A stretch of DNA of 64,000 nucleotides, from assembly GCF_009909145.1 (NCBI RefSeq), contig NZ_JAAAPJ010000005.1, forward strand, positions 336,470 through 400,469. Direction: 5' to 3'. The notes below the pieces were generated by a model, which had not been told where the DNA came from, did no database searches, and was given only the letters and a program-made list of their open reading frames with translations. Shown here one piece after another: positions 6,686-13,766 of the stretch. The position numbers were made by a program, and so were the translations under genes. How positions within the stretch are numbered: position 1 is the first letter of the stretch; every line of letters starts with the position of its first letter. This stretch comes from Corallococcus silvisoli (GTDB lineage: Bacteria; Myxococcota; Myxococcia; Myxococcales; Myxococcaceae).

Positions 6686-7522
6686 TCAGCATCCGCCGCC
6701 TCGGAGCGCATCGGGGGTCCAGGGGTCTCGCGGCTCTTCCTCCACCGAGGGGGCCGGGCCCTTCCAGGCAGACCTCCGCCCCAAGGGCCTTGGGCGGCAC
6801 CGGCCCATCAATCGCAGCAGGTTGCCCCCCAACACGAGCTGCCGGTCCTTCGGAGACAGCTCCAGCGCGAGCACCTTGGCCAGCTCCACCCCCGGGTGCA
6901 GCCACGGGCCATCCGAGCCGAAGAGCAGCTTGTGTGCCCCGGCCCGCTCCACCGCCTCCTCCAGCAGGTCGAAGCGGCGCACCCCAGCGGTGTCGGCGTG
7001 GACGTTGGGCAGGCGCGCCAGGAGGTCCAACAGCGCGCGCTGCGCTCGCCAGTCGTCCGCGAAGCTGCCCAGGTGCGGGATGATGAAGCTCACCTCCGGG
7101 TACTCGGTGGCGATCAACTCCACACCGGAGACTTCTCCCATCACGTCGTAGAGGATGGGCAGCGCGAAGGCCCGGGCCACCTCGCAGATCTCACGGGAGA
7201 TGCGCGCGTCGTAGCGGTGGACCTTGATGCCCCGGAAGCCGTAGCGCCGCACGGCCTCCTGGACCCGCTCGAAGACGCGCCCGCGGTCTCTCACGGCATG
7301 CACGAAGGCGAAGCCGTAGAAGCGCTCCGGGTGGCGTTTCACGAGGCGGGCCACCTGGCGATTCGCCGTGGCGTAGTCGGAGTGGAACGCGGCCAGCAGC
7401 ACCGTGCGGGAGATGCCCGCGGCGGACGCGCGCCGCAGGTAGTCCTCCAGCGGCGCGGAGGTGTCCCAGGGGCCGGTGAGCCCGTCGCCCTTCCCGGCAT
7501 GGCAATGGCAGTCGATGATCAT
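6686..7522 (-). CDS. Amidohydrolase-family metal-dependent hydrolase (TIM-barrel; amidohydrolase-2 like); last gene of the operon
   Basis: Begins MIIDCHCHAGKG (HxH metal-binding motif). Later conserved His/Asp positions (IIPHLG, LFGSDGPW) are typical of amidohydrolase_2. ATG at 7522, 8 nt below the upstream stop. Confidence 0.75.
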   Translation of the reverse strand: MIIDCHCHAGKGDGLTGPWDTSAPLEDYLRRASAAGISRTVLLAAFHSDYATANRQVARLVKRHPERFYGFAFVHAVRDRGRVFERVQEAVRRYGFRGIKVHRYDARISREICEVARAFALPILYDVMGEVSGVELIATEYPEVSFIIPHLGSFADDWRAQRALLDLLARLPNVHADTAGVRRFDLLEEAVERAGAHKLLFGSDGPWLHPGVELAKVLALELSPKDRQLVLGGNLLRLMGRCRPRPLGRRSAWKGPAPSVEEEPRDPWTPDALRGGGC

Positions 7523-7529
7523 CGTCGCG

Positions 7530-8516
7530 TCATCGGCGCTCGAACAGCTCGTAGAGCGCCTTGTCGGGGAGCGAGAGCGCGCGGTTGGCGATGCCAGGCG
7601 CCTTGGCGGCCCGGACGCCCCATGGATTCGGCGGGAGCAAGCCCTGGATGGAGACACCTCCTCTCACGCGGAACTGCCGGATGGAGCTCAGGTTGCGAAG
7701 GCGGCCCGCGGGGACGGCTCCAGAGAGCAGGAGCGCGCGGATCAGCGCATGCTCCACCGCCCTGCGAGCCTGTCGGGTGTTGGGCTGAATCGTCCCGAAC
7801 CAGACCGTGATGGGCTTGGGCAGCAGCCCCCCCTTCTGGGTGAGCCCCATCTGGTAGAGGCTCAGCAGGCGTCCTCGCCAGCGCCCCTGGAAGCTGTCCG
7901 TCTCGCCCACGTAGAGGGGAAGCCCCTCCTCCTCCACGACGTACAAGCCACCTCCGGCGGGAAGCGCGGAGAACGGGTGGCGATCAATCTTCCGCACCGA
8001 CCAGGAGAGGACCTTCGCGGTGACGGGGCCCCGCTGTGCCTCGAGCTCCTGCGACTCCGCGGGAGGGGGCCCGTCCTGCCCGGGCGGAGCGTCCGAGGGT
8101 TCCTCGGGAGGCGCCACATCCGGCGGCGGCTGCGCCGCGGCCACCGGCTCGACGCTGTCGGGAGGGGGCTCGTTCAGGGCCGGCTGGTAGAGCGGGTAGC
8201 CGTACGGCCCTCCGCCGTAGACCACCCAGGGGCGGCCCCTCGGCCACCGCCGCCCCGGCCTCGGCCCCTGCCCCTGCCCCTGCCCCTGCCCGGGGCTCCG
8301 CCACGCACGGGCCGGTCTCGAACCCGAACGCCAGACCTGCGCCCGGGGGACGCCCATCATCCCGCGTCCGACCCCGAACCGCCTCGCGCCGGGCTGGAGT
8401 GCACGAGCGCGGCGCGCAGGTGGCGCACGGAAGGACCGCGCGAAGTGGCCCTCCTCTTCGCCTTCCCACTCGGACTCCAACGCGTCTTCGCTCTCGTTCT
8501 CGTACCACTCATTCAT
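7530..8516 (-). CDS. Hypothetical protein with an acidic/Pro-Gly-rich N-terminal half and a GIY-YIG-like C-terminal domain
   Basis: N-terminus is EWYENESEDALESEWEGEEE, then (GQ)n and PP-rich low complexity. C-terminal GLYVV..LPLYVGETDSFQGRWRGRL resembles the GIY-x10-YIG-R arrangement of GIY-YIG nucleases. Its ATG overlaps the upstream stop by 8 nt. Confidence 0.55.
   Translation of the reverse strand: MNEWYENESEDALESEWEGEEEGHFARSFRAPPARRARALQPGARRFGVGRGMMGVPRAQVWRSGSRPARAWRSPGQGQGQGQGPRPGRRWPRGRPWVVYGGGPYGYPLYQPALNEPPPDSVEPVAAAQPPPDVAPPEEPSDAPPGQDGPPPAESQELEAQRGPVTAKVLSWSVRKIDRHPFSALPAGGGLYVVEEEGLPLYVGETDSFQGRWRGRLLSLYQMGLTQKGGLLPKPITVWFGTIQPNTRQARRAVEHALIRALLLSGAVPAGRLRNLSSIRQFRVRGGVSIQGLLPPNPWGVRAAKAPGIANRALSLPDKALYELFERR
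8262..8291. repeat. Hexanucleotide (cccctg)n microsatellite encoding (GQ)n within the 7530..8516 gene
   Basis: Four to five perfect cccctg units are visible. Potential slipped-strand length variation site (in-frame). Confidence 0.5.
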
Positions 8517-9594
8517 GACGTGTCCTCCGCTGCTGCCTTCCGTCGACGGCTTCCACCAGCGCCTCCACTGCGTGAGTCAGCTCCTCCGCGCCGTGCCGCG
8601 CGGTGAGGATGAAGCTCACCGACACCTCCGGACCGCAGCGCGAGCGCTGGAGCACGGTCCGGATGCCACGCCGGTGCAGCCGCTCGTGGACCGCTCGCGG
8701 GTTCACCCCGCGAGGAAGCTGGATCCGCTGCACCGGGAACCGCCCGCCCACCGAGGCCAACCCCGACCGCCGCAGCCGCCCCCGGAAGTGCGCCACCCGC
8801 AGCGCCAGCGCCTCCCGGAGCGCGTCGCCTTTCCGGCGATTGATGGCCACCGCGTGCTCGGCGGCATGGAGATCCGCCACCGAAGGTGGACTGCAATGCA
8901 TCCGCGTCTCGCTGCGCTCCTCGTACCTGGCCACCACCCGCGCGCCGCCGGCCATCAGCGCCATCGGCACACCCAAGGCCTTCGCCATCGAGCCGCACCA
9001 CAGGACATCTGGCCCGTGGATGCCGTACCAGCGCAGCGAACCCCCTCCGCCGGCTCCGTATGGCAGGCCGGGCCCCGGCATGCCGAACACTCCCAAGGCT
9101 TGGGTGTCGTCCAGGATGAGCAGGCCCCCATGGGCCCGGACCACCTCCAGGTACGCGTCGAGCGGCGCCAGCGCGCCGCAGCCCGGACACCAACCGTCGC
9201 AGACCACCACCGGCCGGAGCCCCTGGCGCGGCGCCCGTGCCAGGAGCCTCGCCAGGGCCTCGGGCGAATGATGGGGAAAGCTCCTCACGGGTCCGCCGCG
9301 CGCCACCACCCGCTCGAACCCCCACCGCACCACCGGGTAGCTGCCTTCATCCCAGTAGAGGGCCACGGGGCGCCCCGCGAGCGCTCCGAACACGTCCCAG
9401 AACAGGTGCAGCGTGGAGCGGGCGAACAGCCCCCGCTCGCAGCCCACCAGCTCCGCCAGGGCGCGTGACGTCTCTTGCGTTCCGGGGGGCTCCTCGAGGA
9501 TGGCCGGAGTGCCCAGGGTGAGCCGCTCCCACGGCGCGAGCGATCCGCTGGAGTGCTCCAGGCCCAGGTAGAGCGCGGAGGTGAAGTCGAGCAC
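8509..9594 (-). CDS. PLP-dependent alpha-oxoamine synthase family enzyme (BioF/KBL/SPT/CqsA-like class-II aminotransferase fold)
   Basis: Aligns to BioF landmarks: FTSALYLGL (substrate loop, cf. FSSNDYLGL), VVCDGWCPGCGALAPL...LILDDTQALGVFG (cf. the DDAHG motif) and SMAKALG (PLP-lysine position). GTG start at 9594 with GGGGGA 7 nt upstream. Confidence 0.8.
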   Translation of the reverse strand: MLDFTSALYLGLEHSSGSLAPWERLTLGTPAILEEPPGTQETSRALAELVGCERGLFARSTLHLFWDVFGALAGRPVALYWDEGSYPVVRWGFERVVARGGPVRSFPHHSPEALARLLARAPRQGLRPVVVCDGWCPGCGALAPLDAYLEVVRAHGGLLILDDTQALGVFGMPGPGLPYGAGGGGSLRWYGIHGPDVLWCGSMAKALGVPMALMAGGARVVARYEERSETRMHCSPPSVADLHAAEHAVAINRRKGDALREALALRVAHFRGRLRRSGLASVGGRFPVQRIQLPRGVNPRAVHERLHRRGIRTVLQRSRCGPEVSVSFILTARHGAEELTHAVEALVEAVDGRQQRRTRHE

Positions 9595-13463: not shown

Positions 13464-13519
13464 GGTCAGTTCCTCGTGTGATGGGGCCGGCTTCGTGGCC
13501 GCGGGTTCGGACCGGGCAT

Positions 13520-13538
13520 AAGCAGCGGCTGTGCCAAC
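13520..13538 (-). promoter_or_regulatory. Candidate sigma-54 (-24/-12) promoter for the 13463->6686 operon
   Basis: Minus-strand sequence TGGCAC-AGCCG-CTGC (plus strand gcagcggctgtgcca) gives a perfect -24 TGGCAC, 5-nt spacer and a -12 GC. It lies about 60 nt upstream of the ATG at 13463 in a divergent intergenic region. Confidence 0.45.
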
Positions 13539-13766
13539 CCCGCCGAGGGTCGCTCCTGCTCTGGGAGTCAGGGCGCGGGAGCGAAGCGCGCTTCGGCGGC
13601 GCCGGCCGAACGGGAGATTCGGCGAAGCAGGCTTCGGCGCCCCGTCATGGCCCCGTGGGCTCCGGGCGAGTCCCCCCCCTGGCGAGGGCATTCGTCCCCT
13701 CGCCGTCGCCATTCGCGGGGCCGTCGGCTAGCGTTCGGCCCTCTCCGCGGAACAAGAGGGGGGCCC

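What the first reader, a model, noticed from the sequence alone, without database searches (positions are those of the whole stretch)
6686..13540. Probably sigma-54-driven six-gene operon of almost entirely uncharacterised proteins
Six genes sit on the minus strand with 3-16 nt gaps or overlaps, consistent with translational coupling. In order they are: an acidic-head/Lys-Gly amphipathic small protein, a 447-aa HExxH protein, a 618-aa protein with no recognisable family, a BioF/CqsA-type alpha-oxoamine synthase, a Pro/Gly-rich protein with a GIY-YIG-like domain, and an amidohydrolase. The operon is preceded by a near-consensus -24/-12 element. A sigma-54 activator is encoded just past its 3' end, and it is divergent from a DUF4139 pair. 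The mix of a peptide-like small protein, a putative protease, a PLP C-C bond-forming enzyme and a hydrolase has no counterpart in a described pathway that I know. It could be a regulated production/processing system for a secreted peptide or an acylated amino-acid-derived signal.
Basis: partly seen in the sequence, partly recalled or inferred. Interest (0 to 1): 0.8.

Follow-up and report, generated by a model that had tools for sequence, protein, structure and literature searches.

The report
Sigma-54-gated tagged pro-toxin cassette
The six genes are a real operon and part of a previously undescribed cassette, conserved in about a dozen bacterial phyla and switched on by its own sigma-54 activator, that most likely makes leader-bearing membrane-active and enzymatic toxins.

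Summary
Six tightly packed minus-strand genes (6686-13463) follow the only TGGCAC-N5-YTGCW match in the 64-kb window. A convergent sigma-54 activator gene ends 14 nt past the operon.

The new result is conservation. The order small protein(s), 447-aa HExxH protein, 618-aa protein, BioF-like PLP protein, a variable slot, amidohydrolase, convergent activator recurs in 80 fetched loci, of 330 confirmed matches among 185,579 species genomes. These loci span about 12 phyla. The -24/-12 promoter and a CGAAGC-N2-GCTTCG dyad upstream are conserved with it. The DUF4139 pair is not part of it.

The variable slot holds toxin-like enzymes: peptidoglycan hydrolases, trypsin-like proteases, HNH and EEP nucleases, and here a divergent GIY-YIG domain. 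These proteins and the small proteins share an acidic-aromatic N-terminal tag. The small protein looks like a bacteriocin precursor. The 447-aa protein carries invariant HExxH and ExxxD motifs, as in gluzincin peptidases. The 447-aa protein and the core of the 618-aa protein match no Pfam, NCBIfam, PADLOC, PHROG or PDB entry.

Best reading: a tightly gated pro-toxin cassette. Whether it serves antagonism or suicide, and what three conserved proteins do, is unresolved. Nine full-text literature searches found no description.

The parts
13623..13636 (.). Distal upstream dyad CGAAGC-ag-GCTTCG, the probable binding site of the cassette's activator.
   Evidence: This is one of only two exact matches to CGAAGC-N2-GCTTCG in the 64-kb window. 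It aligns with conserved dyads in other Myxococcota loci. The core GAAGC-N2-GCTTC (up to 1 mismatch) lies 40-400 nt upstream of the first small gene in 40 of 70 loci, against a background of 0.022 per 360 nt.
13582..13595 (.). Proximal upstream dyad CGAAGC-gc-GCTTCG. Its centre lies 41 nt from the distal dyad and about 54 nt upstream of the -24 GG.
   Evidence: Eighteen loci carry two or more such dyads.
13521..13536 (-). Sigma-54-type -24/-12 promoter element TGGCACagccgCTGCT, 58 nt upstream of the first start codon.
   Evidence: It is the only match in the window. The same CTGC variant is conserved in Myxococcota orthologues. Sixty of 71 orthologous loci carry a GG-N10-GC element within 300 nt upstream, where about 3 would be expected.
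12834..13463 (-). Small protein (209 aa). Its order is an acidic-aromatic tag and helical leader (residues 1-57, net charge -17) ending in ELDQFLG, a Lys/Gly amphipathic stretch (net +7), a glycine-zipper stretch, an acidic helix, and a C-terminal GRWVRKGNKIILYGV. It is a putative leader-bearing membrane-active pro-toxin.
   Evidence: Composition and hydropathy are. FLG is 100% conserved in 183 relatives, the median leader is 64 aa with net charge -16, and the next 45 aa carry net +6. There are 1760 homologues with no Pfam domain, and some JGI records call them 'DUF697 family'. One to five copies precede the 447-aa gene in 54 of 55 loci that are complete through a downstream activator gene. 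A weak PHROG tape-measure match (E 9e-4) covers the Gly-rich part.
11484..12827 (-). 447-aa helical protein with invariant H190-E-V-G-H194 and E233-x-x-x-D237. It is a putative cytoplasmic gluzincin-type metallopeptidase and the candidate enzyme for removing the leader or tag.
9610..11466 (-). 618-aa protein: an N-terminal Ig-like beta-sandwich (about residues 1-110, variable between lineages) plus a conserved alpha-helical core of about 480 aa. The core is an orphan family of unknown biochemical role.
8509..9594 (-). Divergent fold-type-I PLP protein of the alpha-oxoamine-synthase lineage. It is a frequent but dispensable accessory gene.
   Evidence: Aminotran_1_2 scores 1e-9 and bioF 59.9 bits against a cutoff of 426. 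In the alignment to BioF structures the Schiff-base Lys (SMAKALG) and the Asp (DDTQ) are kept, while the two conserved His are Tyr and Gln. The gene is present in 48 of 55 complete loci.
7530..8516 (-). Variable-slot effector (328 aa): acidic-aromatic N-terminal tag (MNEWYENESEDALESEWEGEEE), Arg-rich stretch, RPWVVYGG motif, acidic Pro-rich linker, and a C-terminal divergent GIY-YIG-like domain (about residues 165-328).
   Evidence: The sequence is. The tag score is 14, against a background median of 3. GIY-YIG scores E 0.08 to 0.22 here and 0.015 in an orthologue, and 23 of 40 family members hit it (best 1.2e-4). Only 82 representative clusters exist, most with the same N-terminal module, and some are fused to M74, trypsin or PG_binding domains. 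The same slot in other loci holds other toxin-like enzymes.
6686..7522 (-). Amidohydro_2 (TIM-barrel metal hydrolase) protein of 278 aa with the N-terminal motif DCHCH. It is the most conserved gene of the cassette, and its substrate is unknown.
   Evidence: Pfam gives 4.6e-23. It is 60-86% identical across phyla and present in 46 of 55 complete loci. There is no PDB sequence relative at E<=0.001.
5319..6671 (+). Convergent sigma-54 enhancer-binding protein: an orphan N-terminal domain of about 120 aa, an AAA+ domain with GAFTGA, and a C-terminal Fis-type HTH (weak). The start at 5319 was chosen by alignment to orthologues; the longest ORF starts at 5211.
   Evidence: Sigma54_activat 2e-53, AAA_lid_14, and HTH_8 at 1e-3, below its cutoff. 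The best NCBIfam and PADLOC matches (RtcR, NorR and PspF types) cover only the AAA+ and HTH parts. GAFTGA is present. The N-terminal domain has no PDB relative. The gene is convergent and adjacent in 53 of 55 loci.

Best explanation
The operon is the Corallococcus silvisoli copy of a horizontally spread, self-contained pro-toxin cassette that is held silent by sigma-54.

Shown:
- The cassette's own enhancer-binding protein gene, two CGAAGC-N2-GCTTCG dyads and a -24/-12 promoter are conserved together with the structural genes across about 12 phyla.
- The first gene(s) and a variable slot encode proteins that share an acidic-aromatic N-terminal tag.
- The slot proteins carry peptidoglycan-hydrolase, protease or nuclease domains. 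In this window it is a divergent GIY-YIG domain.

Inferred:
- An unknown signal acts on the activator's orphan N-terminal domain. The activator then binds the dyads and opens the sigma-54 promoter.
- The tagged proteins are made as inactive precursors.
- The small protein is a bacteriocin-like precursor. Its anionic leader of about 60 aa masks a cationic amphipathic and glycine-zipper region.
- The 447-aa gluzincin-like protein removes the leader or tag near the invariant FLG. The mature small protein then permeabilises a membrane, and the enzymatic effectors attack the wall or nucleic acids.
- None of the six gene products has a signal peptide, a predicted membrane span or a dedicated exporter. 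Release is therefore most likely through producer-cell permeabilisation or lysis, as with colicins and tailocins, and the toxins then act on neighbouring bacteria.
- The 618-aa protein, with its lineage-variable Ig/PKD-like head, is the best candidate for a cargo-binding or target-binding component.
- The PLP protein and the amidohydrolase are frequent but dispensable accessories whose chemistry is unknown.
For: - Synteny: 80 fetched loci, of 330 confirmed matches among 185,579 species genomes, from Myxococcota, Acidobacteriota, Betaproteobacteria, Chloroflexota, Nitrospirota, Planctomycetota, Verrucomicrobiota, Deinococcota, Methylomirabilota and others. No other gene family is conserved in the flanks.
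- Regulation: the promoter is found in 60 of 71 loci, where about 3 would be expected. The dyad is found in 40 of 70 loci, where about 1.5 would be expected. The window's only two exact dyads lie 54 and 95 nt upstream of the -24 element.
- Effector slot: Pfam hits to VanY+DUF2272, M23, M74, Rv2525c glycoside-hydrolase-like, PG_binding_1, HNH and Exo_endo_phos, Trypsin, OmpA and GIY-YIG.
- Shared tag: slot proteins have an N-terminal acidic-aromatic score of median 8 against 3 for background ORFs (Mann-Whitney p = 5e-14). The window's small protein scores 12 and its effector 14. The four untagged conserved proteins score 1-5.
- Leader-like architecture of the small protein.
- Invariant HExxH and ExxxD motifs and a zincin-like strand-helix-helix order in the 447-aa protein.
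- No hydrophobic stretch reaches the usual 1.6 hydropathy threshold for a membrane span in any of the products.
- The N-terminal beta-sandwich of the 618-aa protein varies between lineages.
Against: - No immunity gene sits beside any effector. The window's junctions leave no room for one, and none was seen in other loci. A weapon aimed at competitors would also hit kin.
- No exporter, holin family or lysis gene is recognisable.
- Peptidase activity, leader cleavage, membrane activity and toxicity are all untested.
- The 447-aa model has no significant structural neighbour.
- The core of the 618-aa protein could not be modelled, so its role is a guess.
- The tag is short and differs between lineages. 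A nine-seed HMM picked up only 4 further slot proteins.
- Nothing explains why a PLP protein and an amidohydrolase are so strongly conserved (the amidohydrolase at 60-86%).
Confidence: 0.4

Rival explanations
1. Same parts, different purpose: an abortive-infection or programmed-death module. The activator senses phage infection or damage. The sigma-54 promoter, which has almost no basal activity, then releases pore-forming, wall-degrading and nucleolytic proteins that kill the producer itself. The metallopeptidase activates the pore-former, as proteases activate bacterial gasdermins.
For: - No immunity genes are present.
- The cassette has a dedicated, tightly gated activator with an orphan sensor domain.
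- Its distribution is patchy across phyla while sequence identity stays high, as for mobile defence genes.
- Effector domains are swapped on a constant core.
- No exporter is present.
Against: - PADLOC matches none of the six operon products.
- There is no consistent defence-island context in the flanks.
- Peptidoglycan-binding domains, Arg/Pro-rich segments and the variable Ig/PKD head on the 618-aa protein are easier to explain by action on other cells.
- A shared N-terminal tag is not needed for suicide.
Confidence: 0.25
2. A new non-lytic protein-delivery route. The acidic-aromatic tag is a secretion or loading signal. The 447-aa and 618-aa proteins, with the glycine-zipper small proteins as the membrane component, export or hand over the tagged effectors without lysing the producer.
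For: - The tag is shared by unrelated effector domains.
- The effector repertoire resembles type VI and type VII cargo.
- Two large orphan proteins are always present.
Against: - No ATPase, channel-forming membrane protein or outer-membrane component is conserved.
- The small proteins have only mildly hydrophobic stretches (maximum hydropathy 1.36).
- Nothing resembles a known secretion system.
Confidence: 0.12
3. One reading: a biosynthetic operon for a modified peptide or an amino-acid-derived small signal. The PLP enzyme would form a C-C bond, the amidohydrolase and the 618-aa protein would tailor the product, and the HExxH protein would process it.
For: - A PLP protein of the alpha-oxoamine-synthase lineage keeps its Lys and Asp.
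- A metal hydrolase is strongly conserved.
- A leader-like region sits on the small protein.
Against: - Both family histidines are replaced in the PLP protein.
- The PLP gene is missing from 7 of 55 complete loci and the amidohydrolase gene from 9.
- No acyl-CoA or ACP-supplying gene and no exporter is conserved.
- This reading does not explain the variable slot of large hydrolases and nucleases that carry the same tag.
Confidence: 0.1
4. An envelope-stress or wall-remodelling response built like the Psp system. A PspF-like activator controls an operon whose first product is an amphipathic membrane-binding protein that protects or repairs the membrane, together with wall-modifying enzymes.
For: - The activator's AAA+ domain matches PspF-type models.
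- The first gene encodes an amphipathic protein.
- Many slot proteins act on peptidoglycan.
Against: - There is no similarity to PspA.
- Nucleases in the slot (HNH, EEP, GIY-YIG-like) do not fit repair.
- The wall enzymes have no export signals.
- The activator carries an extra N-terminal domain that PspF is not known to have (the PspF comparison is from memory).
Confidence: 0.08

Closest known systems
Sigma-54 operons with a dedicated adjacent enhancer-binding protein (for example PspF-psp and RtcR-rtcBA)
   Same: It has a -24/-12 promoter, two upstream dyads at about -55 and -95 from the -24 element, and an AAA+ activator with GAFTGA encoded next to its target. Like those systems it is a stand-alone unit without a histidine kinase.
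   Different: The activator's N-terminal domain matches neither the RtcR nor the PspF model outside the AAA+ and HTH parts, and has no PDB relative. None of the controlled genes is related to psp or rtc genes.
Class II bacteriocins and Gly-rich microcins with double-glycine leaders (for example colicin V); Caulobacter CdzC/CdzD glycine-zipper bacteriocins
   Same: The small protein has an anionic helical leader ending in E-L-x-x-F-L-G, followed by a cationic, glycine-rich, glycine-zipper region. The resemblance to the ELxxIxGG leader and to CdzC/CdzD is recalled from memory, not tested.
   Different: The leader is about 60 aa and the product about 150 aa, with further conserved parts. There is no C39-peptidase ABC exporter and no immunity gene. 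The candidate leader peptidase is an orphan HExxH protein. Control is by sigma-54.
Polymorphic toxin systems (type VI, type VII, CDI and Rhs effectors; S-type pyocins and colicins)
   Same: A constant N-terminal module is joined to interchangeable toxin domains: VanY, M23, M74, trypsin, HNH, EEP and GIY-YIG. The N-terminal regions are disordered and Arg/Pro/Gly-rich, as in colicin translocation domains (the colicin comparison is from memory).
   Different: None of the known trafficking domains is present (PAAR, LXG, MIX, Rhs, receptor-binding domains), there are no adjacent immunity genes, and there is no linked secretion apparatus. Instead there are two orphan conserved proteins plus PLP and amidohydrolase genes.
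Bacterial gasdermin-protease defence operons
   Same: The logic is similar: a pore-forming protein kept inactive by a terminal inhibitory segment, encoded next to a protease (an inference).
   Different: There is no sequence relationship and no PADLOC hit. Here the putative inhibitory segment is N-terminal and the protease is a zincin. Extra conserved enzymes and a transcriptional gate are also present.
BioF/Kbl/SPT/CqsA alpha-oxoamine synthases
   Same: It has the fold-type-I PLP fold, the N-terminal LDFTSALYLGL motif, the Schiff-base Lys and the Asp.
   Different: It scores far below every NCBIfam cutoff. The ring-stacking His is Tyr and the DxxH His is Gln, and the start of the chain is shortened (the alignment begins at BioF residue 42). 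It is dispensable in some cassettes.

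Membership tests
Sigma-54-dependent promoter with cognate enhancer-binding protein | GG-N10-GC (-24/-12) element at a suitable distance upstream of the first gene. | tested here: met
   TGGCACagccgCTGCT lies at 13521-13536 and is the only match in the window. 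It is conserved in 60 of 71 orthologous loci.
Sigma-54-dependent promoter with cognate enhancer-binding protein | Activator with a sigma-54 interaction AAA+ domain and a GAFTGA loop. | tested here: met
   PF00158 scores 2e-53 and GAFTGA is present.
Sigma-54-dependent promoter with cognate enhancer-binding protein | Upstream activator-binding dyads. | tested here: met
   Two exact CGAAGC-N2-GCTTCG dyads are the only ones in 64 kb. They are conserved across phyla. Binding itself was not tested.
Sigma-54-dependent promoter with cognate enhancer-binding protein | Transcription depends on rpoN and on the activator, and the six genes form one transcript. | not testable with these tools
   This needs RNA-seq or 5'-RACE in rpoN and activator mutants.
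Alpha-oxoamine synthase (BioF/CqsA type) | Score above the family cutoff. | tested here: not met
   TIGR00858 scores 59.9 bits against 426, and the CqsA-type model 36 against 428.
Alpha-oxoamine synthase (BioF/CqsA type) | PLP Schiff-base lysine and pyridine-N aspartate. | tested here: met
   SMAKALG aligns with the BioF Lys motif, and the Asp of DDTQ aligns with the DDAH Asp.
Alpha-oxoamine synthase (BioF/CqsA type) | The two conserved histidines (ring-stacking His and the His of the D-x-x-H motif). | tested here: not met
   NHAS aligns with SYPV, so His becomes Tyr. DDAH aligns with DDTQ, so His becomes Gln. The same residues appear in the orthologues examined.
Gluzincin (HExxH + ExxxD) metallopeptidase | HExxH motif and a downstream Glu in an ExxxD motif, conserved across the family. 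| tested here: met
   H190, E191, H194, E233 and D237 are invariant in 30 sequences from many phyla.
Gluzincin (HExxH + ExxxD) metallopeptidase | Zincin fold recognisable by structure comparison. | tested here: inconclusive
Gluzincin (HExxH + ExxxD) metallopeptidase | Membership of a curated peptidase family. | tested here: not met
   No Pfam or NCBIfam hit was found, including scans of 30 members.
GIY-YIG nuclease superfamily (fifth gene) | Pfam PF01541 at the gathering score. | tested here: not met
   The window protein scores 12-14 bits against a cutoff of 22.6.
GIY-YIG nuclease superfamily (fifth gene) | GIY...YIG hairpin, downstream Arg, Glu and Asn, and consistent family-level signal. 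| tested here: met
   The window protein reads GLYVV...LYVGET..F.GRW.GR...VEHALIR...LRN. In the family alignment Y192, Y202, R212 and N275 are 90% or more conserved, but the Glu of VEHA is not among those columns. Twenty-three of 40 members hit PF01541, the best at 1.2e-4.
Amidohydrolase_2 (PF04909) | Pfam gathering score and an N-terminal HxH metal motif. | tested here: met
   It scores 82.8 bits against a cutoff of 26.4. The DCHCH motif sits at the N-terminus.
Double-glycine-leader bacteriocin or microcin | Leader motif E-L-x-x-hydrophobic-x-G-G/A/S before a cationic or Gly-rich core. | tested here: inconclusive
   E-L-[DE]-Q-F-L-G-x is conserved, with FLG at 100%. The residue after G is D, S, N or G. 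The consensus used for comparison is from memory.
Double-glycine-leader bacteriocin or microcin | C39-peptidase ABC exporter and an immunity gene in the locus. | tested here: not met
   No further conserved gene family occurs in the flanks of the 82 loci clustered.
Polymorphic toxin system | A constant N-terminal module joined to interchangeable C-terminal toxin domains. | tested here: met
Polymorphic toxin system | A cognate immunity gene immediately downstream of each toxin. | tested here: not met
   The window's junctions are 7 nt or overlapping. No recurrent small ORF follows effectors in other loci.
Known anti-phage defence systems (PADLOC) | A match of the core proteins to a defence-system model. 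| tested here: not met
   Only the AAA+ part of the activator matches RtcR- and PspF-type models. The six operon products match none.

The most novel reading that the evidence does not exclude
The cassette is a new, phylum-spanning way of deploying protein toxins. It would have its own N-terminal targeting tag and two previously unknown machine components, the 447-aa zincin and the 618-aa protein with a swappable Ig/PKD-like head. These would load, mature and deliver pore-forming and enzymatic effectors independently of any known secretion system. It would be a new class of interbacterial weapon, or of altruistic-death immunity, fired by a dedicated sigma-54 switch.
Probability: 0.25. Interest if true: 0.92.

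Novelty: categorically new. Interest (0 to 1): 0.8.

Why it matters
- It would define two large orphan protein families (thousands of members, 50-65% identical across phyla) and give them a testable role.
- It would add a new effector-tagging and toxin-deployment logic to bacterial conflict biology.
- It would supply a ready catalogue of tagged antibacterial enzymes and membrane-active proteins.
- The regulatory half is already well enough defined to serve as a handle: a conserved dyad, a -24/-12 promoter and a dedicated activator with an unknown sensor domain. Removing the activator's N-terminal domain should switch the system on in tractable hosts such as Massilia, Janthinobacterium, Variovorax or Myxococcus stipitatus.

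Tried and rejected
- Family scans: Pfam, NCBIfam, PADLOC and PHROGs scans of the small protein, the 447-aa protein and the 618-aa protein gave nothing useful.
- PDB sequence and profile searches: nothing for the 447-aa protein, the 618-aa protein or the amidohydrolase. The small protein gave only insignificant hits.
- The AFDB Foldseek library was unavailable.
- Literature: nine full-text searches found no description. The one candidate paper, PMC7159879, contained none of four follow-up terms, sigma-54 among them.
- Supplements of a Paraburkholderia phymatum rpoN transcriptome paper (PMC5979394) contained no identifiable cassette genes.
- The idea that the DUF4139 pair belongs to the unit is rejected. 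It is absent from all other loci.
- A phage or plasmid origin is rejected. There are no phage hits, and plasmid hits are on only four large replicons of 1.5-2.8 Mb.
- My first two regular expressions for the tag were badly designed and found almost nothing. A nine-seed HMM mostly recovered its own seeds. The composition test is the usable one.
- Rfam, tRNA, sigma-70 promoter and intrinsic-terminator scans of the region were all empty.

Full report
**Source and layout.** The window comes from Corallococcus silvisoli; the 618-aa protein is 100% identical to an NCBI entry of that species. On the minus strand lie six ORFs:
- 12834-13463 (209 aa)
- 11484-12827 (447 aa)
- 9610-11466 (618 aa)
- 8509-9594 (361 aa, GTG start)
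- 7530-8516 (328 aa)
- 6686-7522 (278 aa)

The junctions are +6, +17, +15, -8 and +7 nt. The amidohydrolase start is the ATG at 7522, because every orthologue begins MIIDCHCHAG. A sigma-54 activator gene (5319-6671, plus strand) converges on the operon, with 14 nt between the stop codons. No sigma-70-like promoter, intrinsic terminator, Rfam family or tRNA was found in the region.

**Regulation.**
- TGGCACagccgCTGCT at 13521-13536 (-) is the only match to TGGCAC-N5-YTGCW in 64 kb, against 0.2 expected. It lies 58 nt before the first ATG.
- On its own that is not decisive, but in 71 orthologous loci a GG-N10-GC element (up to 2 mismatches from consensus) lies within 300 nt upstream of the first small gene in 60. 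It mostly sits 45-100 nt from the start codon. The background rate is 0.04 per 300 nt.
- Aligning the upstream regions of Myxococcota loci revealed two conserved dyads.
- In the window these dyads are the only two exact CGAAGC-N2-GCTTCG sequences, at 13582-13595 and 13623-13636. Their centres are 41 nt apart, about 54 and 95 nt upstream of the -24 GG.
- The core GAAGC-N2-GCTTCG, with up to 1 mismatch, occupies the same position in 40 of 70 loci from many phyla, and 18 loci have two or more copies. The background is 0.022 per 360 nt.
- The activator has the sigma-54 interaction domain (2e-53), an AAA lid, a weak Fis-type HTH and the GAFTGA loop.
- Its first 120 residues or so match nothing in Pfam or the PDB.
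- It is convergent and adjacent in 53 of 55 complete loci.

Promoter, binding sites and activator thus travel together with the structural genes. This is strong comparative evidence for sigma-54 control, although no transcript data exist.

**Conservation.**
- The 618-aa and 447-aa proteins have more than 3800 and 5723 detected homologues, without Pfam domains or informative names.
- Identity to the window proteins outside Myxococcota is 49-57% for the 618-aa protein and 62-67% for the 447-aa protein.
- A scan of one genome per species gave 330 confirmed matches, of which 80 were fetched. They come from Myxococcota, Acidobacteriota, Betaproteobacteria (Massilia, Janthinobacterium, Rugamonas, Variovorax, Polaromonas, Thauera, Caballeronia), Chloroflexota, Nitrospirota, Planctomycetota, Verrucomicrobiota, Deinococcota, Methylomirabilota, Rokubacteria and others.
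- tblastn mapping shows one order everywhere: small gene(s), 447-aa gene, 618-aa gene, PLP gene, variable genes, amidohydrolase gene, convergent activator gene.
- Clustering all ORFs of these loci found no further conserved family, so the DUF4139 pair of the window is incidental.
- Among 55 complete loci, the PLP gene is present in 48, the amidohydrolase in 46 and both in 40.
- Small-gene copies number one in 16 loci, two in 34 and more in 4.
- There are no phage hits, and plasmid hits are limited to four large replicons of 1.5-2.8 Mb.

**The variable slot.** Between the PLP gene and the amidohydrolase gene the content changes from genome to genome. Pfam finds the following there:
- VanY with DUF2272, M23 with PG_binding_1, M74, an Rv2525c-like glycoside-hydrolase domain, PG_binding_1, HNH and endonuclease/exonuclease/phosphatase domains
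- trypsin-like proteases
- OmpA-like domains
- extra small-protein paralogues

In the window the slot holds the 328-aa protein. Its C-terminal domain is a small family of 82 representative clusters. Of 40 members, 23 hit Pfam GIY-YIG (best 1.2e-4), while the window protein itself stays below threshold. The GIY, YIG, Arg, Glu and Asn positions are present in the window protein. Some relatives fuse this domain to M74, trypsin or peptidoglycan-binding domains.

**A shared N-terminal tag.** Slot proteins begin with short acidic-aromatic sequences:
- FTFEAEPFE in Acidobacteriota and Verrucomicrobiota
- FEVLPFG in Betaproteobacteria
- WYEAEDE in Myxococcota

A composition score for the best 20-residue window in the first 70 residues has median 8 for slot proteins and 3 for 454 background ORFs (Mann-Whitney p = 5e-14). 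The window's small protein scores 12 and its effector 14. The 447-aa, 618-aa, PLP and amidohydrolase proteins score 1-5. Many effectors continue with an Arg/Pro-rich stretch, an RPW-hydrophobic-hydrophobic-x-G motif (RPWVVYGG in the window) and an acidic Pro-rich linker. An untagged M20 peptidase occurs in five loci.

**The small protein.**
- Residues 1-57 carry net charge -17 and end in a conserved amphipathic helix, LA.ELL.V..E.EL[DE]QFLG.
- In 183 relatives FLG is invariant, the median leader is 64 aa with net charge -16, and the next 45 residues carry net +6.
- After the leader come a Lys/Gly amphipathic stretch, a glycine-zipper stretch (maximum hydropathy 1.36, below the usual membrane-span threshold), an acidic helix LELEGLSxEDREFEVA and a C-terminal GRWVRKGxKIxLYGV.
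- The Gly-rich part gives a weak PHROG match to tape-measure proteins, and some JGI records call relatives 'DUF697 family'.
- The E-L-x-x-F-L-G motif resembles the double-glycine leader of class II bacteriocins and microcins. This comparison rests on my memory of that consensus.

**The conserved untagged proteins.**
- *618-aa protein.* It has an N-terminal Ig-like sandwich in Corallococcus. In other lineages this is replaced by PKD, CarboxypepD_reg or NPCBM_assoc domains or by Gly-rich sequence. Its helical core of about 480 aa, with about 100 invariant columns, could not be modelled (pLDDT 35-70) and matches nothing.
- *PLP protein.* It keeps the Schiff-base lysine and the aspartate, but the two family histidines are Tyr and Gln. 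It scores far below all alpha-oxoamine-synthase cutoffs.
- *Amidohydrolase.* It is a clear PF04909 member, 60-86% identical across phyla, with no close solved structure.
- None of the products has a hydrophobic stretch reaching the usual 1.6 threshold for a membrane span. By inspection none has a signal peptide.

**Interpretation.** Shown:
- an operon-like unit conserved with its sigma-54 promoter, dyads and activator
- a variable slot of wall-degrading, proteolytic and nucleolytic domains
- a tag shared by slot proteins and small proteins
- a leader-like small protein
- a conserved zincin signature

Inferred:
- the tagged proteins are pro-toxins
- the zincin matures them
- the small protein attacks membranes
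- release is by permeabilising or lysing the producer, because no exporter exists

I favour a bacteriocin-like antagonistic role (0.4). The reasons are the effector repertoire, the peptidoglycan-binding domains and the variable adhesin-like head of the 618-aa protein.

The absence of immunity genes is the main argument for the rival that the same machinery serves abortive infection or programmed death (0.25). The roles of the 618-aa protein, the PLP protein and the amidohydrolase remain unexplained under every reading.

**Novelty.** The regulatory scheme is ordinary. The cassette is not. Two of its constant proteins are orphan families, the tag is undescribed, and nine full-text searches found nothing. 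Curated family libraries and PADLOC also have no entry for it. I therefore rate it as a new kind of system, with the caveat that function is inferred from sequence alone.

Noticed in passing
window 3415-3975 (+): A VanY-type D-Ala-D-Ala carboxypeptidase (Pfam 6.6e-19) with a signal-peptide-like N-terminus lies 1.3 kb upstream of the activator gene. It has no acidic tag and is not conserved beside the cassette elsewhere. VanY domains also occur as tagged slot proteins in other phyla.
   Followed up: partly
window 3995-4867 (-): A 290-aa lipoprotein-like ORF with a Cys-rich repetitive C-terminus has no Pfam hit.
   Followed up: partly
window 13647-16040 and 15983-17599 (+): Two DUF4140/DUF4139 genes overlap by 58 nt as longest ORFs. 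The first carries a long Pro/Gly/Ala-rich insertion inside DUF4139. They are divergent from the cassette promoter but absent from all other cassette loci.
   Followed up: partly
Loci L036, L040, L046, L054, L057, L064, L069, L076, L081, L082; also L049, L068, L070: Many small-protein paralogues and some effectors carry a C-x-C-x-x-C-(R) knuckle, for example CGCAKCRQ or EACQCPECRE. It lies before the FEVLEF-type tag in the paralogues and after the tag in the effectors. Its role is unknown.
   Followed up: no
window 8216-8239 (-); relatives P0362-P0406: The motif R-P-W-hydrophobic-hydrophobic-x-G (RPWVVYGG here) follows an Arg-rich stretch in most GIY-YIG-like effectors and several other slot proteins. 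It loosely echoes the small protein's C-terminal GRWVRKGNKIILYGV.
   Followed up: partly
L011 13510-15033; L013, L059, L063, L068: An untagged M20/M25/M40 peptidase gene sits just before the amidohydrolase gene in five loci from several phyla. It may be an additional accessory enzyme.
   Followed up: partly
L085 (Paraburkholderia phymatum pBPHY01, 1545793-1565049): This is a reduced cassette. It has small genes, the 447-aa gene, a shortened 618-aa homologue (only residues 314-589 match), no PLP gene, the amidohydrolase gene and a convergent activator. The host is tractable and has published rpoN mutants.
   Followed up: partly
L083 (Polyangiaceae MAG): This locus is rearranged: five small-like genes, two tandem copies of the 618-aa gene, then the 447-aa gene, and an activator on the same strand.
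   Followed up: no
window 10001-11000: G+C drops to 0.648 over the core of the 618-aa gene, against 0.69-0.75 in most other 1-kb windows of the first 20 kb. This would fit acquisition by horizontal transfer.
   Followed up: no
window 15395-15408 and 52495-52508: Two one-mismatch copies of the CGAAGC-N2-GCTTCG dyad occur elsewhere in the window. The first lies inside the DUF4139 ORF. They are probably chance matches.
   Followed up: no
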